DNA of 63,562 nt from Mizuhopecten yessoensis (Eukaryota). This document shows, piece by piece, positions 16,901-36,951 of the stretch (its first letter is position 1; each line of letters begins with the position of its first letter). The stretch is taken from assembly GCF_002113885.1 (NCBI RefSeq), contig NW_018407979.1:592226-655787 (forward strand). Reading direction: 5' to 3'. The notes beneath the pieces are model-generated. The model made no database searches, had not been told where the DNA came from, and was given only the letters and a program-made list of their open reading frames with translations. The position numbers were made by a program, and so were the translations under genes.

Positions 16901-18377
16901 TCTTGTTGTGGAAATTAAGTGTGGATTTGTCGGTGAACTTGTGACCACATAAGTTACACAGGAAAGGTTTATATTCAATGTTGATAGAAGCATGACGCCG
17001 GAGGTTGGTCTTGATAGGAGTGTTATACTTGCACCCTTTACACTTGTAGGACCTATAGAGTCCAGAGCCTCGGCTGTTTCGATCTGGTGTTGACAAATTT
17101 GAACAATCTGTACTGTTTGATTCATCCAGTCCAGAAGTATCGGATACATTCGGCTCAGCTTCGCCTGTGCTTTTCTCGACCACTTGTCTATCACTAGTTT
17201 CATCCAGAACAACTGCAGGCTTTTCAGTACTTGTAGGCTGTTCATCTGGTAGTGATGGTTTTGTTTGGTCATTCGTTCTAGGTTTGGTGACTAAAGCCAA
17301 GGGTTCCTCTTGTATATCTGGTATTATCTGTCCTTGATCTTTAGAGTCAGTCATTCTAGATGCACTGGATCTTTGCCCTCTACTCTGCTTTTGAACTTTG
17401 CCTCCATCCTGTGCAATATCACTCTCCTTTGAAGCTTGTGTTTCACATGTACTTTTGCCTTCATTTACTGTTTGATTCGTGGGCAATGATTGTTCTGTTT
17501 GTTGTTCAGTCAATACAGCTGAGGTTTTATCATTCGTAGTTTCTTCTTCTGTGTCTTTTTCCTGTTTGTTTTTATCGTCCGTACATATTGTTTCGGATTC
17601 TGATTCTTTTTCTTGTATGTCTGCATCTTTAGGACCACCATTGATTTTGTCTGTTGTTTCTCCCTCGGTTGCATTGCTTTCGTCTTTCTGTTGTAGAGCT
17701 GTTTTCTCTGTCGCCTCATTCACTGATGTCACATCTGGTTTTTCATCTGCCGGTTCCTTCTGTGGTAAAATTTCACATGGTGTCTCTTTGTTTGATAACA
17801 CTTCTTGTTCACTGGGTGTTGTCACTTGAGGTGTTTTTGCTTCATGTAAAATAGGTGATGTAACTTCCGGTGTATCAAGTGATGTCACTTCTTGTGTATC
17901 AAGTGATGTCACTTCCTGTGTACTGGATGATGTCACATCCTGTGAGTTTGATGATGACACTTCCTGTTTATTATCTATTTCAGTGTTGTCTACCGATGGC
18001 AGGCTTTGTTCGACATTTTGATCATTTGAGTTCTCTTCAGTGGTTTTTATAATGGCTGAACAGGGATCAGATTCTTTAATTTTCTGCTCCAACTTTTCCT
18101 CAGAACTGGCTTCCATGTCCTTTTTCTCAATTGGAGAAGGTTCGGTGCTTTGTTTTTGGTTTTCATCTTTTTTTGGATCTTCTTTCGGTTCTGTCACATT
18201 TTCCTTACTTTCAGCATCAGACTTTGCCTCTTCATTCTCTGTACCAGCACTGCCACATTGGTCAGTTACCACGCTCTCCGAGGTTGAAGTATCCGAAGAG
18301 GTTTTCTGGTCCGAGACTGGTTGCTCGCTACTGACATCATTGGCGGCTTTTTCAGCAATTGTATCAGACGTTGCCAT
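13944..18377 (-). CDS. Main coding exon (about 1478 codons) of a large nuclear AT-hook plus C2H2 zinc-finger protein. It has an acidic Ser/Thr/Glu-rich N-terminus with QEVTSLDT repeats and multiple GRP/RGRG/KRKRGRP AT-hook-like motifs. A Pro/Gln-rich block (PVPMQMPLPIPIQVPAQIPTQIP) is present. Three pairs of C2H2 fingers occur (YKCKGCKY...HNKKRH, CPLCDYQ...HYKEEH, CPKCPFE...RRNH).
   Basis: Uninterrupted 4.4-kb ORF in a 35%-GC genome. ATG at 18377 is preceded by an acceptor-like tgttttttcag (about 18437), suggesting an upstream 5'UTR exon. Consensus donor AG|GTAAGT at 13943/13942 ends the exon in phase 0. The remaining 93 nt of the raw ORF are intronic read-through. Confidence 0.8.
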
Positions 18378-19558: not shown

Positions 19559-22500
19559 TATGCTACTTATATAATATATGTTATGCAGATATTTTTATTG
19601 CCTTTCTTTGTAATGGCTGTTTAATAGAAAATTACTCAATTGGTTTATTATAATCAGTTAATATAATAATTTCTGTTTTGTTGTCTAGATTTTTCTCAGT
19701 CATGGTGTTTTGCACCTTGATTTCAGATTACTAGGTATTGTTGAGCCTTCCATATTAACTGAAGTGTAGCTGGCTAAAATATTGTTCGTAATAAGTTGCA
19801 TGTCATATTGGGACTTATAATAATAGGCTTTAGGCCAAACAAACAAATAAGTGTGTTTCATGTTATACTTTTGAAAAAATTAGGGTAGGTTAAAGGTAGG
19901 TAGGAAGGTAACTAAAAATAATTTCATATGGTTTCTATAGGAGAGTGATCTTGACTTTAACATGGTTTCTTTGATAATTGCCTGAAAAGTTTAGGGTAGG
20001 CACATAAAATTAGGGTAGGTAGGGTTACCTGGAAACACAAAATATTTTTAGTTCAGCCTTGCTGTATACACAAACCTGGTATTATTAATCAGTTATACTT
20101 GGGTGTTTATGACACCTCAATAGAAAACTGCGAGTATACAAACATCTAATTTTGTTTATTTATATATCTATACCTACACATCAATAATTCATGCCTCCTA
20201 AGTTTGAAAAGCAATGGTTATGAGCCGACACAACTCCTTATCATTCTATTTTGAATATTTTTAAATATCTCATTATTTACCCTTAATATACAGTACATCA
20301 CTGTACATGATGAATCACCTATGGTAAGTACAGTATATGTTATTTAGATAGTTGCCTCAGGTGATACATTTAAATACATGTTTAATCAGAAAAATATGCA
20401 GGGATTTTCTTATATATGCTATTTATGTCAGAATTCCTCCTTGCTATTTCCATTAAGACTTTGTATCATTTTACATAACAATCCATACAAAAAAATAGCA
20501 GTAATTTTCTTACAATGTTTTCAATCATGACAAAAAAATCATGATCTATATATAATAGCATTTACATCATACGTATGTATGCATACTTTATTCTTAAGTC
20601 TTAATAAATAAAAGTTAAAATAAAATTATGTAGCTTATAGCAGGAAGTAAAGTAGGTCAATATTGAATTATTCAATTAATCAACAGCAGCTGTACAGATC
20701 GAGACATCTGTTGTCTGTTAGCAGTATATCATGCTGAATAACTGACTAATTACTTTGCAGCAAGTTACATCATGCAGCATGTAATTCACATGCTATAAAA
20801 TAAGATTTACCTACATTTGCATACCAGCATGTCTACACATATCCTGCCATTATATACACGTAATGCAGTAGCATCATCATGTAGTACTGTAAAATATTCT
20901 TCATGTGTGAAGCAATACAACAGACTTGTAATACATATATACATAGGCATAATGAGAGAAGTATTGATTGTCAGTGGTGATTGACATAAGGCAAAGGAAG
21001 CCTGCAGTGCACTGTTATGTATACGTTAACAAAGGCACCATTTTTAGAACTAATATTATATTTATACTAATCAATATATAATATAGCGTTGCAAAGGAAC
21101 GAAACATTTCAGAGCTGTTCTGGTATTATGTATGCTATCTGTGCACACATTTATTAAAACTTTGCCGTTGAACCTGCATAGACACATCAGGTATTTAACA
21201 CTATACGGTATCCATTCACGTGTACAGTATACGTAATGGCATGTATGTAATCATACATAAACAATAATGAGTCAGAAATATTCATCCACCCGAATTACCA
21301 TTTCACGAAATTAACGCATATGGTCGCCTTTTATCGTGTGCATTATGACTATGTGAAACGCATATGTGTGTATGCATGTTGCAAATATTTGTTTATGTCA
21401 ACGAAATATGCCAATAGCTCAAATAAGGATAAGGTCATGTCCGACCGCGAGAGAGTAAGTTATTGTTTACAAGTGTAAACTGATGAGCGGAAATGGTCAA
21501 GGAGTGAAATTTGCTGCTCGCATTTATATACGCACGACCATGGTACATTATTTCATTCAACCTCTAAGCAAGAGCCACAAAACCGATCACCAGAAACTTA
21601 TATTTACCTGATTAAGTCTTGCATATTAGCTGACGTTCAGGACGTGGTCGACGAGCGTCTCTTCGGATTGGGTTGTGTATTGTGAATTTTCAAGCACTTT
21701 TCTGATCAAGAATGATTGAGTGCAGCATCAACACAAGTCTACCGATTCTCGCGATGAAAACACGTAGATGACCCAGAAAAGGGGAGATTATCAGTATTTT
21801 TTGGCGGAATATTTCAAGGTGCTACCAAAGGAGTTAAAATCAATATAACTATAACAATGAGTGAATCTGGATATAAAAATATCCCTTATACTATAACCCC
21901 CTCAGTTTTTTTTATAGTATAATGGATACTTTTTATATACATATTGCTATAGTTATATTGATTAAACGTCAGACTACAAAAAAACCACCCCTTACAGGGA
22001 CGTTTCTAGGATATTTGAAAGAGAATGAAATATTTTTTGGACCTTTTTTTTGCTAAAATACATAAAATAATTGTGAAATGCACTAATGTAACGGTTTCTG
22101 ACTTGGAGCCCATTACACCCTCACCTGGACCCGCCCCTGCCTTACACTGGTAGTTACTAACTTTTAGTGTGTACAGTATATTGATTTAACGTCAGGCTTC
22201 GAGGAACATGCAAATATGAATTATCATTTTTGTTTCTAGAACATTTGCTGCCGGACCTATGCCGACAAAATAAATAACAAATAACTGCTTCAGACGGAAC
22301 TGATGCAGACGGTATGCCTCTGAATGTTTCAAATCGTCTTTTATGTAGACCGCGGACGTAGATGACTGAGCTAATTCCGTGATATTTATAAGACCTTTTT
22401 CTTTGTGACATCGATTAATATAGACCTAATAGGGCACTAGTAGGCGCGGAGTGAAACCGTCGTAATCTGTCGACTGCAACTTTCTTATATACGGTTCGAG

Positions 22501-23395
22501 ACACCTCGGCACTTTTTTTAGCCTCGGATCACCTCGGCACTTTTTTTTAGGTCACTTCGGCATATTTGATTTTTTTTCTGATACTTCTTAAAATAAATTA
22601 ATATTGTTCCAATAACACAAATCAACATGCTAATTTCTTTCAGTACGTCGTGTTTACATGTTCAAAACATGTACGTGTATAGAACTGATGTACTTTTATT
22701 GTCATTCTTGTTTATTTTCTTTATTTTGTCATGAAAGGTTTTGGTTTAGGTTAAAATATAAAGCAAGGAAGTCTTGTGGCAGCAAGGGGTAGAGCGTTAG
22801 TTACAGAAAGTGATTGTTTCCACATTCATGTAAATATCTTGTCATCACGCAAAGCGGGTACCAGTGGTTGTGATTATCAAGAAAAAAACGAAGTCATGCT
22901 CATACAAGATGTGGAACGATATATTTGTAGGCGTGTTATCGGTATTCGTCTTATCGTAATAATTTTCTCAGTTATGTATACCAATTTAAAATAGATTTTA
23001 AATTCTAATTATGTTTAAATTTTTAAATTCATAATCACGTTAATTTTTTATATCTTCAATTTTTGTTCAGTACACGTTACCATACCCGTATTCTTGACGT
23101 ATACAATCCACAGTTGAATGACATCAGAAGATAGCCATGCATACATAAATATATGCATAACTTATTGAAAAAAATCATTAACTCCTTGAAAACCGTTATA
23201 TAATTAGCACATACCGTAGAAAACTTTGTCAGATAATTGAAAAGGATAACTTGTATCCAAAACATATAAAAAGCGTTTTGTTTAAATATCAATAGATTCA
23301 GTTCAATTCTTTTTTTACTTTAGACCTTTTGGTCCATCAGTAAAACCACGGACTTATAGTATGGCGTACAGAGTATAATCTTATAGAGAATGAGG

Positions 23396-23650
23396 TTCAC
23401 GTGCCGTTAATAGATAGTTGTAGGTATACTGACCACGTGCCGTTCATAGATAGTTGTAGTTGCTGACCACGTGCCATTAATAGATAATTGAATGTACTTA
23501 CAACTTGCCGTTAATAGATAGTTGTATGTATACTGACCACGTGCCGTTAATAAATAGTTGTAGTTGCTGACCACGTGCTATTAATAGATAATTGAATGTA
23601 CTGACCACGTGCCGTTAATAGATAGTTGTAGGTACTGACCACTTGTCATT
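23396..23650. repeat. Tandem repeat, about 6 copies of a 40-60-bp unit (ACTGACCACGTGCCGTTAATAGATAGTTGTAG...)
   Basis: Direct repeats. Each unit contains the CACGTG E-box palindrome. Confidence 0.7.
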
Positions 23651-25329
23651 GATAAACACAGAAAACGTTATGTAATGTTCATGTTATATATACGTCACTA
23701 TATTGTAAGGAAAACCTTATTTAATGTTCATGTTATATACGTTACGATATAACACGGACTTAGATAATCTAATTCCGTGTATATACTTAGAAATCTTCAT
23801 TTAATTATTATAATTATATATAAAATTTCATCTTTACGGCACATTATTCATTTTTTAATTGCTATCTTTATGGACTGGCGTTATTCTGTTTATAATTTCA
23901 ACGTTATAATGCTTCCAATTTGATATAAAACATTGTTATATTTTAACAATTATTGTTTCTATTGAGGGTCTTCAAAGTGGACGAGTGGAGCGTGTACGGT
24001 CAATGTTAGTGTTGTGTTAGTATTTCGGTGAAATAGCGTCCACGAATGACTTTTCATGCATCACAGAGGGGCGTCGCATGTATGCCCCCTCACTTTGATG
24101 TCTAGAACGACGCATGGACATAATGCATTATATACATAGGTATAATATACATATGTAGACCAACAAACATCACTCTTTCAAATGTATTTCATTGCGTTTT
24201 TCACATTTGTGTTTTTAAGATTATTTTTCGTTCAACTTAACTTTTGACATCACAACTGTTGGCCAGACCTTTTTATGTCATATTTTCTAAAAGAAGATCG
24301 ACATATGTCCATCGGCATCATGTGATCTGATATGTAAATTAGGAATTCTTAACTTATCTATTTATGGCATTGTTTAGGCATTACAAATTCCCAATGATAA
24401 CTCGAAAGATCCCATTTTCCTACCGGGGCTGGGGACGCTAGCCTCTATATTAAACTGTCACTTGAATGAGGAAAGTGGGTCTGATACAGGTCATTGACGG
24501 AACCAGAGACCTATCTGGGGGGTGGGGGTTCCAAATGTCCAGGGGGGGTTCCATGTGGGGGAAAAATTGAGGAAAATGATGAAAAAACATGGTTTTTAAA
24601 GAAAATTCGCAGGTTGGGGGGTTTCCTGAAGCCCAAAAAAACCTCTGGATCCGCCACTGCAGGGTATACTGTATGTTGAGTGTCACGCAAAATGTTCATT
24701 GCATGCTGTATAGTCTTTGATTTATATAAAACTTATAACATATATATATATATCCTTGAAATATTCATCTTTTTTCTTTCACCAGCTTACTTTGTTAGTA
24801 CGTACGATTGTACGAATATACAATTTGAAAACGATATGCATGATCTCATGTAAGAAATGTTCATGTATCAAAGGGTGATTAATCTTGAACCTCACAATTT
24901 GATAAAGTGCTAGAAGCAATTTATTGATTCTTCTAAATATGTATTTACCCAAGGGAAACTATATAAAATCTATATGAAATATTAAAAAAGGTAAGTTGCA
25001 ATATAGAAATTATAACAATAAAACACTCTAACGTTACAGGTCAATGTTATATTTTAAAGAAAATAATAAAACATAGGGAAAGTGTAGTGAACTCCCCGAT
25101 CCCCCGTAGATTTATTAATACAACGACTCCTTTCATCAATTTTGGGGGAAAAAATGTTACCTTAATTTAGATCGTCTACTGGTGCGCATATTCAAAGACC
25201 TTGCCCTAAGCAGTAATACTTCAAGTGCTTATTAATCATTATACGCTTATCAAAGAAAGAACGCAAATGAAACTACGACGCACCGTACTTCTATTATCTA
25301 GGTGTCATTGATATATTTAGCTAGCATAG

Positions 25330-25500
25330 TTAACGCGTACTATAAGAGTTGTCTCCCTTAGAACGTAAACGGTCATCGATAAAAATAGAAGCAATGGAAC
25401 GCAATGTGATTGGTCAATCGAATGGCCACGCCCCCCTCACCGGCCTGCAGGATCTTGCTCAACATTCAGAAACTCTGCTGACGCAGCTTCAAGAACAGGT
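25330..25500 (+). promoter_or_regulatory. CpG-rich segment with an inverted CCAAT box and GC/CACCC box (TGATTGGTCAATCGAATGGCCACGCCCCCCTCACCGG), followed by a consensus splice donor (CAG|GTAAGC at about 25498). Candidate promoter plus non-coding first exon.
   Basis: Local CpG density is much higher than the flanking sequence, and the motifs are present. No long ORF. Confidence 0.3.
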
Positions 25501-26002
25501 AAGCATTCAGCATTTTTTAATTGATTTTATTTAAGTAAATCAGTGTTTTTAAATGGCTTTTAGTTTAGTGTTTAGAGTAAACTTAGTTTTAGTTATTGAC
25601 ATTTTATAAAACTGCACAGAAAATCGTCCCGAAAACGCTGCAAAACGCACGATTTTTTTTTTTACTTCCGCTTTATCGATCTGTGGAAGGGACGGACATG
25701 TTTATAAGCGTGTACTTGGAGACGCAACAACATAATTACACCGTCAGCAATTATTGTTAATATATAATAAACTTAACATTGATTAGTGTTACAATTGTTA
25801 GTGAATTGACCAATTATTGAAACTTCGTCACAATGAATTTTTCAGAACAGTGCATAATGTTAACATTTTTGAAGTTAAATTTATAGAATTTAGTAGGCCT
25901 TAGGAATTATAGAATGCACGAATTTGTCATGGAGATATATTCTTTACGAAGGTACAAAATACTGTTTTGATATCGTACATAACCCGCATTTCCTTCGGCC
26001 TA

Positions 26003-26216
26003 GGCCGTTTTCGTTTAAACGGTCAAACCGGTCGGACCACTGTTGTTCGTTTATCAAATAAGGTCGGACCTTGTAATCTGATGCTGCTTTCAGGCGAGCC
26101 TTGGCAAAGCCTTGCAAGTCCTGCATACACATTTGCAGGTCCGCCAGGATTTATACCCGACATTGTTACATTTATAAACGGTCAAACCGGCTGTTCCGCA
26201 TAAACGAACAGACCCC
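26003..26216 (+). repeat. Interspersed repeat family F copy (with subterminal inverted repeat AAACGGTCAAACCGG)
   Basis: Alignment to the other F copies. Confidence 0.5.
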
Positions 26217-27425
26217 TAATCACACAGGTACATTCTTGCACAACATTTCAGTATGACGTCACTAAGTGATCATTGCTATATTTACACACGGGTTTGTCCC
26301 AAGTACATCCCACAAAGACCTTTGATTGACATTTGAACATTTACACGGATTGCCAGAGCGTTGTGAAATATGTGTTTGTATGGTTAACATATACTGGTTG
26401 TCAGTGGCCTGTGAATAAAATAAAATAACAAATGCTGACAAAGCGCTGAATATACGTCATTCTGACAGGCTAGCACTTTTGTACCTTTAAAACCGGGAGG
26501 CATCTGAATATAGAAGTCAGTATGGGTGAATATATTTTCGCGTGAACATATACCACTGGGACACCATGACTTGACTGAAGACGACTCCCCCCTTCCCACA
26601 AGTCGCCGGCTTGTTGCTTACTATTTGGAGCTGATTTTTTTTTACTTGTGTACTGGTATTATATATAGGTAAGATTTTTTTTCGTAACTTTATTTGTCAC
26701 ATGCACAAGATCAGGACACCATTTTAAAGTAATAACTTAAAAATATTTATCAATATCAGCGGCAGTATATTCTGTAGAGGTACATCGTTATAAATATTTT
26801 ATGGTAGCGATATAGGTCTCAGATTTGTCTTTTTATATAATATATACATGTAAGTGCAATGCTGGATAAATCTATTCTAAACACTTTTCTGAGTGGTTAA
26901 GTTTGTGTTCTTATCGTCCTTTGTATGATAACATCTTAACACTTAACAGAGGATGAGGGATGCATGTAATTACACTTAATTAATACACAGTATGATATCT
27001 ATATTGGTATATCTAACATTACAGTTCAGTGTTGCTAAGTATTTTCATCCTTGTCATTTACTCAAGCAGTATTGACATTGTATCATTATCTATACATACA
27101 TGTACATTATAATGACATTTAAAATAGATTGTCAAAATATCCTTTCATATATTAGCATCCTGCAGAATTTCTAATTGTTACCAAAGTCATTTATATTTCA
27201 CGATGTATATTTCTGATTTTCTGCACATTTCTCAGTCATATATGGGTATACAATGTATATGTTCACCAACTGTGGCTTATATATCATCTTTAAACAATAC
27301 AGCAGAAAAAATTGTGATTGTAATATTCTGCTTGTTGCATCATACGGAGTGGAAGTCAGGTCTTTATCCGAAAAATAATGTATGTGTTGAACCATATCAC
27401 TAAATGTTGCATCATACTCCAGCCT

Positions 27426-27516
27426 TTAACTCATTCACCCCTGAAATTTCTTAATGAACTGTTCCAACCTTTGAACTAGAAGAGTTCAAATGTGTCTTCA
27501 GGGGTGAATGAGTTAA
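27426..27516. mobile_element. MITE family A copy
   Basis: TIRs with TTAA flanks. Confidence 0.7.
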
Positions 27517-30100
27517 TTGTGAGAGAAGTTAAGGTTTATTGAGTGAAACTTTAATATAAATATGATGCCTGTCATTTCACTTCTCACCTCACTTTATGTG
27601 ACAAACTTTCCAGATTATCTGTACTTTGTAATGCAAACACTTTAATTTCTATGTGTACCTGCATGATATACCACCAAACCAGCAATCCTGTTTCCTCTCA
27701 TATAAAGCCCCCTATGCTCTTCCATCAAGACCAAGATTGATTAAACTTGTTGATAATTGTTGTAAAATATTTATATTTAACTTGACTTAAGGTATGACAA
27801 GGGGAAGTATAAAAGGAGTACCTATTTCAATAGACGTTTATTTTTAAAAGCGAGCCAGGGGGAAGGAAGTACCCGTAATATTACCAGCTTACAGTACCTA
27901 AAAAGATAAATGTGCCGTTTGACAGTAATGTTGTACACTTGTAATCAGTGATACAGCATATAATATTTCCTTGTGAATGACTCATTCAAGGGCCTTAATG
28001 GTTGTCTATTTCCTCATTATTATCAAATAACTTCTTCCTGTATACCTGTCACTGGAGTCGCACAGTAATATCAAATAATAAGTAAATATATATTGGATAT
28101 GTTACATCCTGACTTGCTATAAGCTGCTCGAAAGCACAACACAGTACATTCATATACAATCAGTGCTAGGGCTGCAGCGATACATTAACATGACAATACG
28201 ATATGTATCACGAAACTGTGGTCACGATACGATACATATCATGATACATATAGTAACAGTAGAAGCAAGGCGAAAAGATCTGTTGCAAATTTTAATGGCA
28301 ATATTACAACTGAAAATAGACTTGGTCCTTAATGGGCATCACTTTTAAAGTTTCACTTAATTCACATCTTTTGACGTGCATGCCAAGTTTGAGCTGTCAC
28401 TCAGCATGTTTGCACCGATATGAGTAGACTAAATTCAGAATCGACAAATCCGGAAAATATTGTATGTGTATCGTAACCTCTGAACAAATATTATGTATTG
28501 TACTGCATTCAAAATATCACGTTGCAGTCCTAATCAATACAGTATTGTGTTATTAGGCACTAACTACTCAGGTTCTATGCCACCTGACTAATGTCTCCAC
28601 ATGTGTGTATGCATGTTTTTGTACTGGAGATGTGTTTTGTTCTGATTTGTAGTGGGACTTTGTTTCCAATAGGCAAAATAAATCACTGGTTGATAATGCG
28701 GTCAAATCAACCAGTAAAAATATATTCACTACAGGCTGTCGTACACGTACATGCTGTTTCATTGCATCGTAATATATGTATGTGTGTTGATTTGGGATAA
28801 TTTACTTGGTGAGGGTGCCAGCGACAGGTGTTGGGGAGCATGACTTAATTATTGATGTGAAACAAATTGGGAACTAGGTAGGCGTAAGATTTATGAAAAT
28901 TATATACAATTACTCTCGAGACAAGTTGTAATCTGTAGTCATGGTTTGATCCCTAGCGGAGGCATTCAAAAAGATAACTTGAAAAGAGGACTTGGCTTAG
29001 CCTATTATCCAATCCTTTTGTTATTTCCCCCTGGTATCAATAAGATCTGTTGAAACAAAATGAAGAGAGTAACCTTATTACAGAGCACAAGACTTGGTAC
29101 AGTATAATGTACCGTACATGTGTTTGATTCCTTTTGTCATATCAGGTAAAATTGATTATCGGATACTTGCTGTGTCATCAACAACATAAAAGCTATTGAT
29201 TTAACTATATACCAAGTACTCTTTATATAAAGTATAGAAGGGTACCTGTATAACACACATATATAAAGTAGAAGGTCGCCTGACACCTGTATACATGTGT
29301 ATCAGGTATTATCTGTTGCCCTAAAATGTTGGCACAGATCCAGATTAGTGACTCTATATAATTACACATAACTGTCTGTGCCAGACATTTCAATCTTTTG
29401 AACTTACAATAAATAAATGGTGAGCCCAATAAACGGTGTACTTTGTTAGTGTAAGGTATTTCAAAGTAGAATTATTTTTACCCTGAGTGACCTTACTCGA
29501 ATGTTCTGTCTCGCAATGTCACAAGCTTGTATGTGTACACACCTGTCTAAATTGGATATTGTATAGTTTGGAAGCTCATCAAAAACACTTCATTCATAAC
29601 TTAAGTGAATCCTACAAAATCCTTAACCTGAAGGCTGCTTTCATTTTATGTGGTCCAAAATTTTCGACCATTTTTTCTTTTTTATCGGAGTTGTTCGTTT
29701 ACGAAATAGTGACGGGCCTAGTGATTTGATGTAGCTTCCTGGTGAGCCCTAGCACTAACTTTGAAGGACTGCATCTACAGGTCTGACTGGCTTTATTCCT
29801 AAAAATAGTACATTTATAAATAGGTGAACCAGTTTGTCTGCTTAAACAAGCAGGCACTTAATAATTATAATTGCCAAACTGCTGTTGCATGGTCACTTAA
29901 ACAAAATGTCAAACTTCGTGGTAGTCAAATGTCAGATGATATTTATATTCATGCATGAACAAAAAATGATCCTAGAAGATTGACAAACATTGAAAAAGTT
30001 ATCTATATTCAGTGAAAATAGGAAGTCTAAAATCATTCACTTGTGACTACAATTTTACAAACTGAATACCTGTTTGTTTGGGCCAGGTGGAACGTGACAG

Positions 30101-30500
30101 TCACCAATCAGAATGATTTTTTTTCCAGATAAAACTTTATTTAGTCTATTATGAAACAAGTTTTATCAAATACCATTTATCAATCAGGATGTCTGTAACA
30201 GCAGATTTTCATATTGACTTGTGTCTGTATAGTACGTACCAGGAAACCAATAAAAAAACTAATGTTTGTTACTTTCGTTTCCAAAAAATATTCAAATTAA
30301 CCAATCAGAATGTCTTTTTGTTGTAAATAACCAATCAAAATGTAAGTTGTCATATCTTACCAATTATTGAATTAATAATGTCTGCGTTATATACACTACC
30401 AATCAGAATAATGTCCTATACATGTTTGATGCAAAAAATCATAAAATCATACAACCAATCAAAACGTCTTATTTGTTACAGATAACCAATCAAAATGTCC
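30101..30500 (+). promoter_or_regulatory. Array of seven CCAAT (NF-Y Y-box-like) motifs of the form AACCAATCA(G/A)AATG at about 30103, 30181 (variant ATCAATCAGGATG), 30299, 30329, 30397, 30453 and 30485. The last copy contains the MVP start codon.
   Basis: Direct motif recurrence. CCAATCAG is the classic NF-Y site. The 45-bp segment 30299-30344 is duplicated at 30453-30500. Confidence 0.5.
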
Positions 30501-30637
30501 GTCTCTCGTCGTGGAGGAGAGGAGCTGTCCTTGTTTAGGATCCCTCCCTACTACTACCTCCATGTCCTCGACCAAAACCTTAATGTTACCCGTTTGGAGA
30601 TCGGGCCCCAGACCTACATCCGCCAGGACAATGAAAG
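30495..30637 (+). CDS. MVP: Major vault protein exon 1 ([47 protein letters not shown] + first two bases of the Arg codon), phase-2 end.
   Basis: ATG at 30495 is the first in-frame ATG after a TAA stop. Donor AG|GTGAGG at 30638. The N-terminus aligns with the vertebrate MVP N-terminus (IPPYHYIHVLDQN...YIRQDNER). Confidence 0.85.
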
Positions 30638-31132
30638 GTGAGGCTTTTGCACAAAATTTACTGCAGAGGATAAACAGGTTTCTTCTGAATGTAGAATCCT
30701 GACTTGACAAGTAGCTTTTCTCTTGTTTACATTCATGGCTGATAATTCATTTTTGAAGGAGCATTTGTGGACATTTTTTTAATTGATGTACAAATTATAT
30801 TTACACTGCAAAAATGGATGTAGGGCCGGCCGGTTGCTCACAGGAACAAAAGCTCTGCCATATTTATCCTACAATAAGCCCGGGGGGCTAGTGCATAATT
30901 TCTGACTCAAAATAGGGATGGGCTTATTACAGAGAAGTTAAAATGTATTTGTTGAAATTTTATTTAAACTGAAATAGATGTGGATGGGCAGATAAATTTG
31001 GTTTCCTATTCGATTTATTATAGTGCAAACTTTTAACTGAATCGGTATATAGTGAAACATGTTTTTATTTAATTCTGTAATTCTTCAAAATCTTTGAACT
31101 CCTGTCTTATAAGAAGTGTCTCGTGTCTACAG

Positions 31133-31328
31133 GGTGGTGTTTGGGCCGGAGAAGATGATCACAGTTCCCCCGAGGAACTACTGTCTGATCGAGAACCCCC
31201 ATGTCCGCGACAAGGACAACAAGGTTGTACTGGACAACAGCGGCCAAGCCAAACTTCTCCACGCTGACCAGGAGATTCGTCTTGCTCAGGACCCTTTCCC
31301 TCTCTACCCTGGTGAGGTCTTGAAACAG
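31133..31328 (+). CDS. MVP: MVP exon 2 (R)[17 protein letters not shown]...[12 protein letters not shown]
   Basis: Acceptor tctacag|G completes the Arg codon. Donor CAG|GTAAGA at 31329. Conserved with MVP repeat 1-2 sequence ([31 protein letters not shown]). Confidence 0.85.
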
Positions 31329-31581
31329 GTAAGACAGCTTAAAATTTTCATATTTGATTGACTGAGTTCGTTTAAAGTTTAGAACATAATTGAAAGTATT
31401 TTTATATCAAATTAGCATTAATGACACCAGCATTATATAAGAATCAATGTTTTATTTCATTGAAGTTGATCTATCCAAAATATATAGGAATAAAAGTCAC
31501 TCTCTGCCATCTAGTTGTCCTTAAATGTATTTGTGAAGGTGTAATTCATTATATATTGATGATGTAAATTTGTTACTTTAG

Positions 31582-31932
31582 GTTGTGACACCCCTAAAAG
31601 TTGTGAATGCTAACTCAGCTCTCCGTCTCCGATCCATTCTCGACTTTGAAGCTGAGGATGACATTAAGAGGACTGCTGGTGATGAATGGTTATTTGAAGG
31701 ACCCGGGACTTACATCCCTCGCAAGGAGGTGGTGATTGATGAAACTGTTCGCGCCACTGTGATCCGTCCTAACCAGGCAATCCGTCTCCGGGCTCGTAAG
31801 GAGACGATCGACCGTCAGGGAACACCCCGTGTCACTGGGGAGGAGTGGCTTGTTAAGAAGACGGGAGCCTACCTTCCCGGGGCCTATGAGGAGGTGGTCG
31901 ACATCGTCAATGCTTTCGTCCTCACAGACAAG
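31582..31932 (+). CDS. MVP: MVP exon 3 [17 protein letters not shown]...[18 protein letters not shown]...[16 protein letters not shown]...AFVLTDK (117 codons)
   Basis: Acceptor ttactttag|GTT. Donor AAG|GTATGG at 31933. Diagnostic MVP repeat motifs [18 protein letters not shown] and VTGEEWLV. Confidence 0.9.
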
Positions 31933-32212
31933 GTATGGCATTGTATATCACTTACAAATAGTCATAAATGTCAGTAAAATCAAGATCTCACCTCAAATTT
32001 CTTTTCTTGGGTTATTGGAAAATTTTACTATTGGGTAAACGGGGAAATATTCACATAATGTTATTGTAATTTCACTCTGAAGTACAATATATATATACAG
32101 TGGACAGATATTGATAAAAAGTCAAGTGAAGCTGTATGCTATACTAAACAAATATAATGATGTAGTATTGATTTGCACAACTCTGTACAAAAATAAGCTG
32201 TAACTGTCAAAA

Positions 32213-32303
32213 TTAACTCATTCACCCCTGAAGACACATTTGAACCTTTCCAACTCAAAGGTTGGAAGAGTTCATTATGAAGTTTCAGGGGTGAATGGGT
32301 TAA
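32213..32303. mobile_element. MITE family A copy inside MVP intron 3
   Basis: TIRs with TTAA flanks. Confidence 0.7.
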
Positions 32304-32434
32304 GGGGGTAAAGAAGCTTTATCACCTTAAGAGACGACCAGCGATAAAGTAAATCGAGTAAATCGGGTAAAACAGGTAAAGGACATTTATTTTGAACTCA
32401 ATATTAACTTACCATTTGTTTTGGCGTATTGCAG

Positions 32435-32560
32435 AAAGCCCTTCACATGAGGTCCCTGAGAACTTTCAAGGACGACTTTGGTGTTGTGAGGAAAAACGGA
32501 GAGGAATGGTTGATCACCATGACCGAGACAGAAACTCACATCCCCAATGTTTACGAAGAG
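32435..32560 (+). CDS. MVP: MVP exon 4 KALHMRSLRTFKDDFGVVRKNGEEWLITMTETETHIPNVYEE (42 codons)
   Basis: Acceptor tattgcag|AAA. Donor GAG|GTTCGT at 32561. Aligns with vertebrate [27 protein letters not shown]...HEEV. Confidence 0.85.
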
Positions 32561-33006
32561 GTTCGTATAAAATATCTACAATTCACATATATATCTATTA
32601 TGTTGAAATATTATTTTTGATTGATTGTATATCTAAAAATTTAAGTTTAGAAATTCACAATTTCCAAACAACTTAATAATGCAGAAATATTCATATTTTT
32701 TTGGTCGCAAATTGCAATTTTGAGTGATTAATTTCCACAATCTGCAAAAAAACCCCATAAAGAATACAAGCTTAAAATCTTGGGGAAAACCTTAGAAATC
32801 TAAAACAGGAAGTACAAGTGCAAGTAATTACTGTTAGCAGCTGAAGTTAACAAGAAAGCAAGGCGAAATGTTTACATTGTTTAAACTATCACAGAAATAT
32901 ATTTGCATATCAGACGTAGCATGGAAACTTATCAGTAAGATATTGAAAATGTTTCCTGGTGTTTATCCTTTGAGTCATATCGGTTATATTCTTTCCATGA
33001 TGACAG

Positions 33007-33117
33007 GTTGTGGGTGTGGTCTCCATTACGACCTTGACCTCCCGTCAGTACTGTGTTCTTTTGGATCCCTGTGATGATTCTGGAAGGCCACAGCTCGGCA
33101 GAAAGAGGCTGGTCAAG
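33007..33117 (+). CDS. MVP: MVP exon 5 [37 protein letters not shown] (37 codons)
   Basis: Acceptor gatgacag|GTT. Donor AAG|GTAAGA at 33118. Aligns with [21 protein letters not shown]...QLGQKRVVK. Confidence 0.85.
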
Positions 33118-33235
33118 GTAAGATTTGTCGATGTCATAGAATTTGTCAGGTTTTTGGGTTGAAAGATAACAGAATATGATATCATATAATGATTATAAAA
33201 GTGAGACTATAATACTTTCATTTTGCTTAGGAATT

Positions 33236-33365
33236 TAGAATTCAATTCAAGGTCATCTGCTACAAATCATTGCATTTCAAGGTCGTCTGCTACAAATCGT
33301 TGCATTTCTAGGTCGCCTGCTACAAATCGTTGCAGTTCAAGGTCATCTGCTGCAAATCATTGCAC
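33236..33365. repeat. Minisatellite, 4 copies of a 30-bp unit (TTCAAGGTC(A/G)TCTGCTACAAATC(A/G)TTGCA) in MVP intron 5
   Basis: Direct tandem copies. Confidence 0.8.
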
Positions 33366-33633
33366 TTGAAGTATATTATGAAGATGTGGGTTGTAAATTA
33401 CATAAAAAAGTTCAGGACCGAAAAGGCCTTTGAAATTAACTGTTATCAAGACATCCCAATTTGTAATAAAAAGTCTTCAGACTGATTTTGTTTCCGTATT
33501 GAATCGAGTAAGATTAATTGAAGGGAGTGAAACTTTTTCACAGAATTTGAATAATGAGATAGATTCTAATGGATATTGATAATTGACATGGAATATATTT
33601 TGATGTTTTCCATGTTTTTACTTTTAAATTTAG

Positions 33634-33909
33634 GGAGAGAAATCTTTCTTCCTCCTGCCTGGCGAGAGTCTTGAGAGGGGTATCCAAAACATTTATGTGC
33701 TTGGTGAAGAGGAAGGTCTCATTCTCAAGGCTACTGAAACATTCAAGGACGCAGACACAGGGGAAGACCGTCGTCCCGGTGACCGGTGGATGATCCGAGG
33801 ACCTAAGGAGTATGTACCACCCACAGAGGTGGAGGTCGTCCTCAAGAGACGGGCAATCCCATTGGACGAGAATGAGGGTATCTACGTCAGGGACATCAAA
33901 AATGGAAAG
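33634..33909 (+). CDS. MVP: MVP exon 6 [33 protein letters not shown]...[21 protein letters not shown]...[19 protein letters not shown] (92 codons)
   Basis: Acceptor aaatttag|GGA. Donor AAG|GTGAGC at 33910. The near-invariant MVP motif [12 protein letters not shown] is present. Confidence 0.9.
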
Positions 33910-34383
33910 GTGAGCATCATCTCTGTGAAACAATCTTCCATCTTTACAGAAGTTCTCGGAATAATAGGGGACAATATCAACACACTTTTTAATCTTTGTC
34001 TCTCTAACTGCAATATAGACTTTATAGATATCAGGATGAGGACTTTTTAAGCCAGATTCGATTAAGCAATCATTCTGGCAAATTTTCCAAATGCTGTTTT
34101 TAAGAAATTCAAAAGAATTGATGGTTATATTATTTGCATACCTAAAATCAGTCAATTTTATCGTTTCATTCAGTGAACTTAATGAATTTCTTTGGAAATT
34201 TTGAGGGAGCATCTTTACCATTTTCAATAACTGCCTTAATAGGGTTAGTTTAAAAAACGATTTCATTATGTTTTTAGTGAATACACATGAAAATCATGTT
34301 TAAGAAAATCTGTTGTACTATTGATGCTGATAAAATATTTTGAATGGTGTAAAACGTTCACGGATCAATGTTTGTTGTTTTAG

Positions 34384-34965
34384 GTGCGTGCGGTTACTGC
34401 AGAGACTTACATGCTGAGTCACGATGAGGAATTGTGGGAGAAAGCCCTTCCCCCAGCAGTTGAGACCCTCCTAGCCCAAGGGAAGGACCCTATGGCTGAT
34501 CGGGGTGCGCGAGGACAGAGCACAGATACCACAAAGGCTCGGGACAAGACGAGGGTCATCACTTTCCGTGTACCACATAATGCTGCAGTGCAGATATACG
34601 ATTACAAAGAGAAGAAAGCTAGAGTTGTATTTGGCCCTGAACTGGTCATGCTTGGCCCTGACGAACAATTCACCCAGCTCAGTCTGTCCGGTGGTAAACC
34701 AAAGAAACCCAATTCTATCAAATCCCTTTGTCTGTTGCTTGGTCCCGACTTCATGACCGACATCATTGTCGTGGAGACCGCCGATCACGCACGACTCAGC
34801 CTCCAACTATCTTACAACTGGCATTTTGATATCAAAGACAAACTTGATGAAAAGGATGCTCACAAAATCTTCAGTGTACCAGATTTTGTTGGTGATGCCT
34901 GCAAGGCGATCGCATCCCGGGTTAGAGGAGCTGTGGCTCAAGTCCAGTTTGATGACTTCCACAAG
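34384..34965 (+). CDS. MVP: MVP exon 7 [20 protein letters not shown]...[27 protein letters not shown]...LLGPDF...[18 protein letters not shown]...[23 protein letters not shown]...FDDFHK (194 codons)
   Basis: Acceptor tgttttag|GTG. Donor AAG|GTAAGG at 34966. Long stretch nearly identical to vertebrate MVP ([49 protein letters not shown]). Confidence 0.92.
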
Positions 34966-35259
34966 GTAAGGACCATCGTCATTTTACTTCCTCTTCTACT
35001 ATTCAAACCTCCTCTCCAGAGATCACGCTTATATATTTTGTATAATTACCTGAACCTATATATGGAGGCCACATGAATAAAATAAAATCGACATGGAATT
35101 CCTAAGGGTAGTTTTGTACACAGGCTTGACTTTATCATGTTTATATATGATGAAGATCAGAAAGTGTGCTTCAGGGTCCTGGTTTTGTTGTCTGGTGGAA
35201 AGCAATGCAAAATATAGCAAAATAGCCCATATTCTTAAAATCCTTCATTCTGTGTACAT

Positions 35260-35349
35260 TTAAGCCTTTCAACACTGTGACCATAATGGACTCATCCAGA
35301 TCAATGCATGGTAGAGTCTACTAAAGTTGCATAGGGGTGAAAGGGTTAA
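35260..35349. mobile_element. MITE family B copy inside MVP intron 7
   Basis: TIRs. Confidence 0.65.
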
Positions 35350-35781
35350 ACCTGTATTCAGAGACCGCACTTTTGGTCTCATATCCCATATTCTAAATCT
35401 TATTTAGAATAAGACCTTCAGAAATTATTGGAGTGATCTATGATCGCAGGTGTTGAATCTCTCATTGATGTATGAGTCATCACAGAAATAGCGGCAATTG
35501 GGAAAGTAGAGGTGTTCTATTGAACAGGTTTTTTTAACAGTCATAGAATTTTCCCATCCATAAATTACTAAACTTTTAACTAGCTTACAAAATTATAAAA
35601 AAACATGCTTTTTGGATGTCTAGATATTACAGTAAATGTCGGTAATGAAGATATGGATAACTAATTTGCTATCTGCATCAGTTATCATTTGAAATCATGT
35701 AACAAAAACTACACCTTCAGGTTGTTGAACATTTCTTTGTGTAAGACTTTTAATATATTTGACTGTTTGATTTTCCTCTAG

Positions 35782-36237
35782 AACTCCGCCAGGATTATCC
35801 GATCCTCTGTGTTTGGTTTCGATGCGAAGGACAAGGTGCGGGACCAGTTCGTGTTTGGTCAGAACTGTCTGGTGATGACAAGCATTGACATTCAGTCTGT
35901 GGAGCCAGTCGACCAGAGGACACGTGATGCCTTGCAAAAGTCAGTCCAGCTCGCCATCGAAATCACCACCAACTCACAGGAGGCTACAGCTAGACACGAG
36001 GCTGAGCGTCTTGAACAGGAAGCCAAGGGCCGTTTGGAACGACAGAAAATCAGCGATGAGGCAGAAGCTGAAAAGTCGCGTAAGGAACTTCTGGAACTGC
36101 AGGCCAACAGTGCGGCCGTGGAGAGTACCGGTCAGGCCAAGGCAGAGGCTCAGTCCCGGGCTGAGGCCTCGAGGATCGAGGGAGAGGCTGCCGTTGAGCA
36201 GGCCAAACTCAAGTCCATGGCTATGAAGATTGAAGCC
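35782..36237 (+). CDS. MVP: MVP exon 8 [18 protein letters not shown]...[31 protein letters not shown]...[18 protein letters not shown]...KIEA (152 codons; shoulder/cap-helix region)
   Basis: Acceptor tcctctag|AAC. Donor GCC|GTAAGT at 36238. [37 protein letters not shown] and [14 protein letters not shown] match vertebrate MVP almost residue for residue. Confidence 0.92.
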
Positions 36238-36419
36238 GTAAGTATTTTGTAGAGATCAAGACATAGTTGTATTAAATGTCATAGCTTATTGGTATGTTAG
36301 GAAAATATTGAATTATCTTAAAAATTAAACCAGTGCATTTTGGTATTATTCAAAATACTCTCTTTTCAAATATTTAATAAATAACTGATAAAAGACTTTT
36401 GAGATGCTTTAGGAAAAAT

Positions 36420-36860
36420 CCAAAATTTTATTTATAGCATATGCCAACCTGTCTATAAAGGGAAGTTACTCCTCTTTTATCAAATACAGCCTGTAAACCT
36501 GGCTGTCTATAAAAGGGAGCCAAATCATGTTATCTTTATATAATAATAAACAACATTTGACAAAGCCCCTTATCTAGCTAACATAAGCCACTCTAAAGCG
36601 CTTTACAATGAGTAAAGCTCTTTAAATAGGAGTGTATTGACTTTTATTCCATATAACATTCTATAATAGGAAATGAATTCAGTTTTAATATAAGGGAATA
36701 AACCTACCTGCCTTTAACAGGAGCAACTTTTTTATTCCTTATATCTCCCTGTAAACAGGGTTAACTGTTTATTCCCTAGGTTTACCTGTCTATGAAGGGG
36801 AGATAATACCACTTCAGTATAATGTCTGCCTGTCTATAAAGGAGACCTGTCTATAAAGGT
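36420..36860. repeat. Six dispersed copies of the motif (G)CCTGTCTATAAAGG(G/A)GA within MVP intron 8
   Basis: Motif recurrence at 36452, 36503, 36782, 36829 and twice around 36840-36870. Confidence 0.6.
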
Positions 36861-36951
36861 GACCTGTCTTTGAAGCACAAGATTTTTGTATGAACATTTT
36901 GACTTCTTTTAACACAAATATCTTCAACTATAATCTGATTACATTTTATAG

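What the first reader, a model, noticed from the sequence alone, without database searches (positions are those of the whole stretch)
25330..25750. CpG-rich block with an inverted CCAAT box plus GC box and a consensus splice donor 5 kb upstream of MVP
In a genome otherwise depleted of CpG, 25330-25750 is CpG-dense. It contains TGATTGGTCAATCG-GGCCACGCCCC and ends an open stretch with CAG|GTAAGC at 25498. The MVP ATG is preceded by a strong acceptor at 30482. Together this fits a model in which MVP has a non-coding exon 1 here, as vertebrate MVP genes do. The CCAAT array at 30100-30480 would then be intronic or an alternative promoter. Otherwise the block is the promoter of another, unannotated transcript.
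Basis: inference. Interest (0 to 1): 0.5.

Follow-up and report, generated by a model that had tools for sequence, protein, structure and literature searches.

The report
Non-coding first exon of scallop MVP

Summary
The window is from Mizuhopecten yessoensis; my 9-exon MVP model equals XP_021364753.1/XP_021364754.1. In detail: 25330-25750 has 21 CpG at o/e 1.32, against 0.58 for the window, and the motif string, donor (25498|GT) and acceptor (AG|30482) are exactly where stated. Three RNA-derived contigs from the related scallop Argopecten irradians carry the full MVP CDS plus a 5'UTR that matches, with 0-2 mismatches, a spliced model of their own genome: an 87-nt exon 1, a 3.4-kb intron, and an exon 2 starting 13 nt before the ATG. 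That exon 1 is orthologous to window ~25412-25498. Donor and acceptor are conserved in four scallop genera.

- The 35-codon open stretch is not coding. Its ATG lies in a Mizuhopecten-only 10-nt insertion.
- GATTGG and the GC box are conserved but sit at or inside the transcript 5' end. An invariant GGTCATCGATAAAAATAGAA lies upstream.
- The block is part of a 5-kb CpG-undepleted domain (21.6-26.7 kb) between two divergent genes. It is not a GC-rich island.
- The CCAAT array is intronic and lineage-specific.

The exon-1 core is unusually conserved: 83-94% identity against 44-57% at neutral sites. Overall the feature is ordinary and of low interest.

The parts
25352..25391 (+). Conserved promoter footprint: TCTCCCTT ... 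GGTCATCGATAAAAATAGAA. It combines an ATCGAT core with an A/T-rich TATA-like run. It is the probable core promoter of MVP.
   Evidence: Nearly invariant in four scallop genera, while the flanking sequence is 35-42% identical. It lies 22-36 nt upstream of the 5' ends of the Argopecten RNA contigs. The bipartite pattern TCTCCC-N(4-20)-GGTCATC has only 2 hits in the window, with 0.00 expected.
25394..25403 (+). Mizuhopecten-only insertion of about 10 nt, within the run 25392-25403.
   Evidence: In the alignment the other three genera have a 10-column gap here. The ORF has no homologue. If spliced to 30482 it would give a 53-codon out-of-frame uORF overlapping the MVP ATG.
25408..25413 (+). Inverted CCAAT box (GATTGG).
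   Evidence: Invariant in all four genera amid variable spacers. The longest Argopecten transcript (L003) begins at the final GG of this motif.
25426..25433 (+). GC/CACCC-type box (CCACGCCC). It lies inside exon 1 as defined by the orthologous transcripts.
   Evidence: Unique in the window. CACGCCC is conserved in 3 genera and reads CACACCC in Ylistrum. It is present within the Argopecten mRNA contigs L003 and L004.
25412..25498 (+). MVP exon 1, non-coding. The 5' end is inferred by orthology and the true TSS may lie a few nt upstream. The 3' end is exact.
   Evidence: Orthologous to L001:6496-6582, which three Argopecten RNA contigs join to the ATG-containing exon. Core 25436-25498 is 83-94% identical across genera, against 44-57% at 4-fold sites.
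25499..30481 (+). MVP intron 1 (4983 nt, GT..AG).
   Evidence: Donor GTAAGC and acceptor TGTTACAG are conserved in four genera. Orthologous introns are 3405, 3768 and 4417 nt.
25657..25750 (+). Conserved block in proximal intron 1: TTTACTTCCGCTT (ETS-like), TATCGATC, CTTGGAGACG, GTCAGCAA. It is a possible downstream promoter element or alternative TSS.
   Evidence: The motifs are conserved in all four genera. No transcript evidence was available.
26225..26494 (+). Second conserved module in intron 1: TGACGTCA (26254), GCTATATTTA[A/C]AC (TATA-like), TGCTGACAAAGC (26433). It is a candidate intronic enhancer or alternative promoter.
   Evidence: blastn hits in all three orthologous loci. The alignment shows these motifs are invariant or nearly so. 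TGCTGACNNNGC has only 2 hits in the window.
30100..30497 (+). Array of ACCAATCARAATG-type CCAAT motifs (8 CCAAT). It occupies the 3' end of intron 1 and runs into exon 2. The last copy contains the MVP start codon.
   Evidence: Mizuhopecten has 8 copies, Pecten 2, and Argopecten and Ylistrum none proximally. It contains a degenerate duplicate (30317-30343) of the acceptor and ATG segment 30472-30498, 89% identical, in which the AG is lost.
30482..30637 (+). MVP exon 2: 13 nt of 5'UTR plus the first coding segment. The ATG is at 30495.
   Evidence: The spliced 9-exon model translates to exactly XP_021364753.1/XP_021364754.1. The acceptor is conserved.
21608..21817 (-). Conserved first exon of the divergent minus-strand gene, a large protein with weak C2H2 zinc-finger matches whose big exon is 13851-18377. 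It marks the other edge of the CpG-undepleted domain.
   Evidence: Conserved in Argopecten and Ylistrum, with a conserved minus-strand donor ATCAG|GTAAAT. It carries TCTCCCCTTTTCTGGGTCATC at 21767-21787 on the minus strand.
21600..26700 (.). CpG-undepleted domain (o/e 0.9-1.17). It spans both divergent first exons, the intergenic DNA and the first 1.2 kb of MVP intron 1.
   Evidence: CpG o/e computed by compartment. In this species CG methylation is concentrated in gene bodies (PMC13333978).

Best explanation
Window ~25350-25500 is the promoter and the untranslated first exon of the major vault protein gene of Mizuhopecten yessoensis.

Proposed mechanism, step by step:
1. RNA polymerase II starts at about 25405-25415. 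This is inferred.
2. That start point is 25-35 nt downstream of a conserved GGTCATCGATAAAAATAGAA element and coincides with a conserved inverted CCAAT box.
3. The ~87-nt exon 1 contains a CCACGCCC box and a highly conserved 63-nt core. It ends at 25498.
4. Exon 1 is spliced (CAG|GTAAGC ... TTACAG|ATAACC) across a 4983-nt intron to 30482, 13 nt before the MVP ATG. This is shown for the orthologue and inferred here by conservation.
5. The local CpG richness probably reflects a germline-unmethylated promoter and intergenic domain (21.6-26.7 kb) between two divergently transcribed genes whose methylated bodies have lost CpG. This is inferred from CpG o/e and published scallop methylomes.
6. The CCAAT array just upstream of the ATG is intronic. 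It arose by local duplication in this lineage.
For: Species and gene: the spliced MVP model is identical to XP_021364753.1/XP_021364754.1 of M. yessoensis.

Transcripts: three Argopecten irradians RNA contigs hold the full MVP CDS plus 5'UTR. They match exon 1 (L001:6496-6582) joined to exon 2 (L001:9988 onwards) with 0, 0 and 2 mismatches, and they do not continue into the intron.

Orthology: Argopecten exon 1 aligns to window 25412-25509, and exon 2 to 30478-30638.

Conservation:
- The exon, the GTAAGC donor and the acceptor are conserved in four genera.
- Exon-1 core identity is 0.83-0.94. The comparison values are 0.44-0.57 at 4-fold degenerate sites, 0.51-0.61 for the first 150 nt of the intron, and 0.35-0.42 far upstream.

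The ORF is not coding: the ATG at 25394 lies in a species-specific insertion, no homologue exists, and there is no conserved uORF.

CpG o/e by compartment: 0.41-0.58 in gene bodies and 0.9-1.17 in 21608-26700. Gene-body CG methylation in this scallop is reported in PMC13333978.

The CCAAT array is not conserved and includes a duplicated acceptor and ATG segment.
Against: - No RNA from Mizuhopecten itself could be examined. The exact MVP protein is not on record in the contig index. No N-terminal fragment more than 81% identical was listed in the protein search, though that search was not exhaustive: it also failed to list the ~90%-identical Argopecten protein P0122.
- The TSS is only bounded by the 5' ends of assembled contigs, which are not cap-defined.
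- GATTGG and the GC box lie at or downstream of the longest contig's 5' end, which is atypical for NF-Y and Sp sites, so their role is unclear.
- If the Mizuhopecten TSS lay upstream of 25394, a well-contexted uATG would open a 53-codon uORF overlapping the MVP start.
- Each scallop RefSeq MVP protein carries two accessions. That hints at a second UTR isoform that I could not locate.
Confidence: 0.9

Rival explanations
1. The block is the promoter and first coding exon of a separate, unannotated gene that starts at ATG 25394 (MERNVIGQSNGHAPLTGLQDLAQHSETLLTQLQEQ) and splices from 25498 to its own downstream exons.
For: There are 35 in-frame codons from an ATG in good context (gcaATGg) up to a consensus donor.
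Against: The ATG lies in a 10-nt insertion absent from Pecten, Argopecten and Ylistrum. No protein among 5.8 billion shares even three 5-residue words with the ORF. In Argopecten the orthologous exon is joined to MVP exon 2 in three RNA contigs. There is no conserved uORF in any frame.
Confidence: 0.02
2. In Mizuhopecten the main MVP promoter is the CCAAT array at 30100-30490, immediately upstream of the ATG. The upstream block would then be only a minor alternative promoter or an enhancer.
For: There are eight NF-Y-type CCAAT motifs within 400 nt. A GTAAGT lies inside the array at 30341. MVP has two RefSeq accessions for one protein, which suggests alternative UTRs.
Against: The array is absent from Argopecten and Ylistrum, and Pecten has only 2 copies. 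Those species also have two accessions per protein. The array looks like local duplication of the acceptor and ATG segment. This region is CpG-depleted like a methylated gene body, with o/e 0.47. All three Argopecten contigs, including the shortest, use the upstream exon. The upstream exon and its splice sites are under strong constraint in Mizuhopecten as well.
Confidence: 0.06
3. The block is a tight bidirectional promoter shared by MVP and the minus-strand zinc-finger gene.
For: The two genes are head to head, and the whole interval between them is CpG-undepleted. Both first-exon regions carry TCTCCC-N-GGTCATC in their own orientation.
Against: The conserved minus-strand first exon, with its conserved donor, lies at 21608-~21817. 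That is about 3.6 kb from MVP exon 1, well beyond the <1 kb usually used to define bidirectional promoters (my own knowledge).
Confidence: 0.02

Closest known systems
Human and rodent MVP (LRP) promoter and 5' leader
   Same: As summarised in PMC7916137, section 3.4, the human core promoter contains an inverted CCAAT box (Y-box) and a GC box bound by Sp1. The scallop block has a conserved GATTGG and CCACGCCC. The mammalian mRNA has an untranslated, spliced leader with variants (title of Holzmann et al. 2001, FEBS Lett 494:99, cited in PMC3875758). That the ATG lies in exon 2 in vertebrates is my own recollection.
   Different: There is no detectable sequence homology; the resemblance is only at the level of common motifs. 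The human promoter is described as TATA-less, whereas scallops conserve an ATCGATAAAAATAG element about 25-35 nt upstream of the transcript ends. In scallops the CCAAT and GC boxes lie at or inside the transcript 5' end. The scallop uATGs are not conserved, unlike the functional human uORF variant.
Invertebrate mosaic methylation: unmethylated promoter and intergenic DNA between gene-body-methylated genes
   Same: CpG o/e is about 1 across 21.6-26.7 kb and 0.41-0.58 in the flanking gene bodies. That fits the gene-body CG methylation reported for this scallop (PMC13333978) and for oyster (PMC3840415, listed).
   Different: Methylation was not measured here. The link from CpG o/e to germline methylation is an inference.
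Vertebrate CpG-island promoters
   Same: There is a local CpG excess at a TSS with Sp/KLF-type and CCAAT motifs. It passes the o/e and length criteria.
   Different: GC is 0.39, below the 0.50 criterion. The CpG-rich zone is a 5-kb inter-gene domain and not a discrete island. The genomic background is mosaic methylation, not global methylation.
Drosophila DRE (TATCGATA) and Ohler-type housekeeping core-promoter motifs
   Same: ATCGAT cores occur at 25375 (CATCGATAA) and 25675 (TATCGATC). Both lie in conserved footprints next to the TSS region.
   Different: This resemblance is recalled from memory only. ATCGAT is not enriched in the window (8 found, 10.7 expected). No factor binding was tested.

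Membership tests
Non-coding (5'UTR) first exon of MVP | It is transcribed and spliced to the exon that carries the MVP start codon. | tested here: met
   Met in the orthologue: three Argopecten RNA contigs equal exon 1 plus exon 2 of their own genome with 0-2 mismatches. For Mizuhopecten itself this is inferred from conservation of the exon, donor and acceptor. No Mizuhopecten RNA was available.
Non-coding (5'UTR) first exon of MVP | Canonical GT-AG splice sites at the proposed junction. | tested here: met
   CAG|GTAAGC at 25498/25499 and TTACAG|ATAACC at 30481/30482. Both are conserved in four genera.
Non-coding (5'UTR) first exon of MVP | It carries no conserved protein-coding capacity. | tested here: met
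   ATG 25394 is species-specific. There is no homologue. Argopecten and Pecten UTRs have no uATG, and the Mizuhopecten and Ylistrum uATGs are in different positions and frames. The exon is out of frame with MVP.
Vertebrate-type CpG island (Gardiner-Garden and Frommer criteria, from memory) | Length of at least 200 bp and CpG o/e of at least 0.6. | tested here: met
   421 nt with o/e 1.32.
Vertebrate-type CpG island (Gardiner-Garden and Frommer criteria, from memory) | G+C of at least 50%. | tested here: not met
   GC is 0.39 for 25330-25750 and 0.34-0.49 across the domain.
Human-MVP-type TATA-less CCAAT/GC-box promoter | Inverted CCAAT box and GC box are present and conserved. | tested here: met
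   GATTGG is invariant. CACGCCC is conserved in 3 of 4 genera, with CACACCC in the fourth. The motif string is unique in the window.
Human-MVP-type TATA-less CCAAT/GC-box promoter | These boxes lie upstream of the transcription start. | tested here: inconclusive
   The longest Argopecten contig starts at the GG of GATTGG and includes the GC box. Contig ends are not cap-mapped TSSs, and downstream TSSs cannot be excluded.
Human-MVP-type TATA-less CCAAT/GC-box promoter | There is no TATA element. | tested here: inconclusive
   A conserved ATCGATAAAAATAG lies 22-36 nt upstream of the contig 5' ends. In Ylistrum it reads TAAGAATAG, so only the ATCGATAA part is invariant.
Human-MVP-type TATA-less CCAAT/GC-box promoter | NF-Y/YB-1 and Sp1 bind and are required for activity. 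| not testable with these tools
   This needs EMSA, ChIP or reporter mutagenesis.
Bidirectional promoter | Head-to-head TSSs less than about 1 kb apart. | tested here: not met
   The divergent gene's conserved first exon is at 21608-~21817, about 3.6 kb from MVP exon 1.
uORF-regulated MVP leader (as in the human splice variant) | A conserved upstream ORF in the leader. | tested here: not met
   Only Mizuhopecten (ATG 25422, 19 codons) and Ylistrum have a uATG inside the inferred UTR, and the two are not homologous.

The most novel reading that the evidence does not exclude
The 63-nt core of MVP exon 1 (25436-25498) is a sequence-specific regulatory element conserved across Pectinidae well beyond neutral expectation, and is not just a passive leader. 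It would act together with two other features: the intron-1 module at 26225-26494, which carries a second TGCTGACnnnGC (MARE/ARE-like) site and a CRE, and the TCTCCC...GGTCATC element shared, in matching orientation, with the divergent neighbour gene. On this reading the module would give MVP a conserved bZIP (CNC/Maf/CREB-type) stress-responsive control in scallops. The shared element would be a previously undescribed molluscan core-promoter motif.
Probability: 0.2. Interest if true: 0.4.

Novelty: new member of a known kind. Interest (0 to 1): 0.2.

Why it matters
The result fixes the 5' structure of the scallop MVP gene: the promoter is 5 kb upstream of the start codon, not at the CCAAT array next to it. 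It also shows that in this genome a CpG-rich stretch marks an unmethylated-type promoter and intergenic domain, not a vertebrate-style island. Both points are useful for annotation and for anyone designing reporter or expression studies of vault genes in bivalves. Neither overturns anything. The only mildly surprising aspect is how strongly the untranslated exon is conserved, more than the coding sequence, with no RNA structure or uORF to account for it.

Tried and rejected
I obtained the species and orthologues through the exact cluster look-up instead.
- The Mizuhopecten protein P0121 is not on record in the contig index, so no same-species transcripts were available.
- The 35-aa ORF was too short to search. 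The extended 47-aa query found nothing.
- Rfam and tRNA scans of the whole window found nothing.
- I looked for deeper conservation. Blast of the exon-1, block-2 and block-3 sequences against the Patella vulgata MVP locus (L008) and two other mollusc contigs (L007, L009) gave only chance-level short matches.
- RNA structure does not explain the exon-1 conservation. The MFE z-score is +0.54, the consensus fold is -6.6 kcal/mol, and there are 0 compensatory pairs.
- The repeat explanation is rejected for the finding itself. Only 26003-26220 is a dispersed repeat; 25330-25750 is single-copy.
- ATCGAT is not enriched in the window.
- The bipartite TCTCCC...GGTCATC motif is not found at the third CpG-rich promoter-like block (59.7-60.3 kb), so it is not a general promoter signature.
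- No paper on a scallop MVP cDNA or promoter is in the library.
- I looked for a conserved donor that would define an alternative exon 1b in the conserved intron blocks and found nothing convincing.

Full report
**What the window is.**
- Base composition (about 35% GC), intron-like sequence and an MVP-like ORF at 30495 showed the window to be eukaryotic.
I fixed the boundaries by GT-AG and reading frame.
- The resulting 9-exon, 859-aa model runs from 30495 to 37290. It is identical to XP_021364753.1/XP_021364754.1 of the Yesso scallop, Mizuhopecten yessoensis.
- The same cluster gave orthologues from Argopecten irradians, Pecten maximus and Ylistrum balloti. In Mizuhopecten, Argopecten and Pecten the single protein carries two RefSeq accessions. 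That suggests isoforms differing only in their UTRs.

**Checking the observation.**
- 25330-25750 contains 21 CpG, with o/e 1.32 and GC 0.39. The window as a whole has o/e 0.58. The block is at about the 98th percentile of equal-sized windows.
- The motif string TGATTGGTCAATCG-AAT-GGCCACGCCCC is at 25407-25434 and is unique.
- The donor CAG|GTAAGC ends the exon at 25498.
- The acceptor TTACAG|ATAACC starts an exon at 30482, 13 nt before the ATG at 30495.
The CpG-rich zone extends well beyond the stated coordinates.

**The decisive evidence.**
- The contig index returned the Argopecten genomic locus (L001). It also returned three Logan contigs assembled from separate sequencing runs (L002, L003, L004). 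Each holds the complete MVP CDS, uninterrupted by introns, with 20, 100 and 87 nt of 5'UTR.
- Those 5'UTRs map to the Argopecten genome as an upstream exon (L001:6496-6582, donor CAG|GTAAGC), a 3405-nt intron, and an exon starting 13 nt before the ATG (acceptor TTTCAG|ATAATC).
- L003 and L002 match this spliced model with no mismatch and L004 with two. None continues into the intron.
- The Argopecten exon 1 aligns to window 25412-25498. The same exon is found 3.8 kb upstream of the MVP ATG in Pecten and 4.4 kb upstream in Ylistrum.
- Exon, donor and acceptor are conserved in all four genera.
For Mizuhopecten it rests on orthology, because no Mizuhopecten RNA could be reached.

- *The 'open stretch' is not coding.* Its ATG (25394) lies in a 10-nt insertion unique to Mizuhopecten. 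The ORF has no homologue. Joined to 30482 it would be a 53-codon out-of-frame uORF overlapping the MVP start. No uORF is conserved among the four leaders.
- *The CCAAT and GC boxes.* GATTGG is invariant. The GC/CACCC box is nearly so. However, the longest Argopecten transcript begins at the GG of GATTGG and contains the GC box.
- *The best-conserved upstream footprint* is TCTCCCTT...GGTCATCGATAAAAATAGAA (25352-25391). It lies 22-36 nt upstream of the two longer contig ends. I infer that this element positions a TSS at about 25405-25415. In Mizuhopecten that would leave ATG 25394 out of the mRNA. The TSS position is an inference from assembled contig ends and is not cap mapping.
- *The CCAAT array* (30100-30497) is the 3' end of intron 1. 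Mizuhopecten has 8 copies, Pecten 2, and Argopecten and Ylistrum none proximally. It includes a degenerate duplicate of the acceptor and ATG segment that has lost its AG. It is a lineage-specific expansion. An additional Mizuhopecten-specific promoter role cannot be excluded but is not favoured.

**Why the block is CpG-rich.**
- With the gene models in place, I computed CpG o/e by compartment.
- It is 0.41-0.58 in the bodies of MVP, the upstream minus-strand zinc-finger gene and the RNF34/RFFL-like gene.
- It is 0.9-1.17 over one continuous stretch of about 5.1 kb. That stretch runs from the first exon of the divergent gene, through the intergenic DNA and MVP exon 1, to about 1.2 kb into MVP intron 1.
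- The divergent gene's first exon is a conserved minus-strand exon at 21608-~21817 with a conserved donor.
- The distal part of intron 1 is depleted again, at 0.47.
- In this scallop, CG methylation is concentrated in gene bodies (PMC13333978). The simplest reading is therefore a germline-unmethylated promoter and intergenic domain between two divergent, body-methylated genes.
- The block fails the GC criterion for a vertebrate CpG island. The two first exons are about 3.6 kb apart, so this is not a tight bidirectional promoter.
- Only 26003-26220 within the domain is a dispersed repeat.

**The unusual conservation of exon 1.**
- The core of exon 1 (25436-25498) is 83-94% identical between genera.
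- For comparison, identity is 44-57% at 4-fold degenerate sites of the MVP CDS, 81-84% for the CDS overall, and 35-42% far upstream.
- RNA structure does not explain this: z-score +0.54 and no compensatory pairs. Neither does a conserved uORF.
- The core contains TGCTGACGCAGC. A second conserved module in intron 1 (26225-26494) contains TGCTGACAAAGC, a perfect TGACGTCA and a TATA-like GCTATATTTA[A/C]AC.
- TGCTGACNNNGC occurs only at these two places in the window, with 0.22 expected. It is kept at the orthologous sites in Pecten and Ylistrum.
- TCTCCC-N(4-20)-GGTCATC occurs only twice, with 0.00 expected. One copy lies ahead of each of the two divergent first exons, each in its gene's orientation, and both are conserved. 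It is absent from the third promoter-like block.
- Both patterns were defined after seeing the sites, so the chance estimates are optimistic. The transcription-factor assignments (MARE/ARE, CRE, ETS, DRE) are resemblances from memory and are not tests.

**Comparison with what is known.**
- According to PMC7916137, the human MVP promoter is TATA-less and has an inverted CCAAT (Y-box) and an Sp1-bound GC box. Human MVP mRNA has leader splice variants, one with an inhibitory uORF (Holzmann 2001, cited in PMC3875758).
- The scallop gene shares the general layout: an untranslated exon 1, and CCAAT and GC motifs near the start. It shares no sequence.
- Outside the Pectinidae I found no similarity to exon 1. 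A genomic contig from another mollusc does, however, have an acceptor 18 nt before the MVP ATG. The 'ATG just inside exon 2' layout is therefore older than the scallops.

**Verdict.**
- This is an ordinary promoter plus non-coding first exon, very likely already captured by RefSeq gene models that I could not inspect.
- Interest is low. The strongly constrained leader and the shared promoter motif are modest leads.

Noticed in passing
window 21767-21787 (-) and 25352-25377 (+); L001 819-839 (-), L005 6083-6107 (+), L006 1954-1974 (-) and 5427-5452 (+): The bipartite motif TCTCCC-N(4-20)-GGTCATC occurs only twice in 63.5 kb, with 0.00 expected. One copy lies ahead of each of the two divergent first exons (zinc-finger gene and MVP), each in its own gene's orientation. 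Both are conserved in other scallops. The pattern was defined post hoc.
   Followed up: partly
window 25476-25487 and 26433-26444: The MARE/ARE-like pattern TGCTGACnnnGC occurs only at these two sites in the window, with 0.22 expected. One is in MVP exon 1 and one is in a conserved intron-1 module. Both are retained at the orthologous positions in Pecten and Ylistrum, and each has one mismatch in Argopecten.
   Followed up: partly
window 26225-26494: A conserved intron-1 module carries a perfect CRE palindrome (TGACGTCA at 26254) followed about 20 nt later by a TATA-like GCTATATTTA[A/C]AC. It could be an alternative MVP promoter, which would explain the two RefSeq accessions per protein, or an enhancer. 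No transcript evidence is available.
   Followed up: partly
window 30100-30497: This is an array of 8 ACCAATCARAATG-type motifs. The last copy contains the MVP start codon. 30317-30343 is an 89% duplicate of the acceptor and ATG segment 30472-30498 in which the AG is lost. The array is specific to Mizuhopecten; Pecten has 2 copies and Argopecten and Ylistrum have none proximally.
   Followed up: yes
window 25436-25498: The untranslated exon-1 core is more conserved between scallop genera (83-94%) than the MVP coding sequence (81-84%), and far more than 4-fold sites (44-57%). No RNA structure or conserved uORF explains this.
   Followed up: yes
window 25394, 25404, 25422: Mizuhopecten has three upstream ATGs. 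ATG 25394 would open a 53-codon uORF overlapping the MVP start, if transcribed. ATG 25404 gives ATG-TGA, a one-codon ORF. ATG 25422 opens a 19-codon uORF ending 17 nt before the end of exon 1. None is conserved in Pecten or Argopecten.
   Followed up: yes
window 26003-26220; copies at 38962-39131, 13316-13515 (-), 29690-29862: This is a dispersed repeat of about 200 nt (67-80% identity between copies), CpG-rich at 26.0-26.2 kb. It is probably a SINE or MITE-like element. It accounts for part of the CpG-rich signal just downstream of the finding.
   Followed up: partly
window 21608-21817 (-), 13851-18377 (-), 10986-11756 (-): There is a large minus-strand gene. It has a 1508-aa single-exon ORF that is Ser/Glu/Lys-rich, with C2H2-like zinc fingers that are only weak in Pfam. 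It also has a conserved first exon ending ...ATATGCAAGACTTAATCAG|GTAAAT, which may hold the true start codon. The gene's identity was not established.
   Followed up: partly
window 50829-57231 (-); CpG-rich block 59680-60300: An RNF34/RFFL-like E3 ligase gene lies on the minus strand. Pfam matches are RNF34L-like_3rd, SAP_RNF34_RFFL and a C-terminal RING. A CpG-undepleted block about 2.5 kb upstream is probably its promoter; on the minus strand it contains two ATTGG motifs near 60000.
   Followed up: partly
window 52029, 53310, 53333, 58346, 63381 (and 26254): The perfect CRE palindrome TGACGTCA occurs 6 times in the window against 0.6 expected. No shuffle out of 100 reached 6. Five of the six are in or near the RNF34-like gene region.
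   Followed up: no
window 22500-22570: A short tandem-like repeat of CACCTCGGCACTTTTTTT units (three copies) lies in the CpG-rich intergenic DNA. It was not among the blocks blastn detected as conserved in the other scallops.
   Followed up: no
L007 60-110: A genomic contig from another mollusc (SRR6063060; about 80% MVP identity) shows an acceptor, ttacatttcag|AGTGAAGAAGAATCAAAATG, 18 nt before the MVP ATG. It shares the AATCAAAATGTC context with the scallops. MVP start codons a few nt inside exon 2 therefore appear to predate the Pectinidae.
   Followed up: partly
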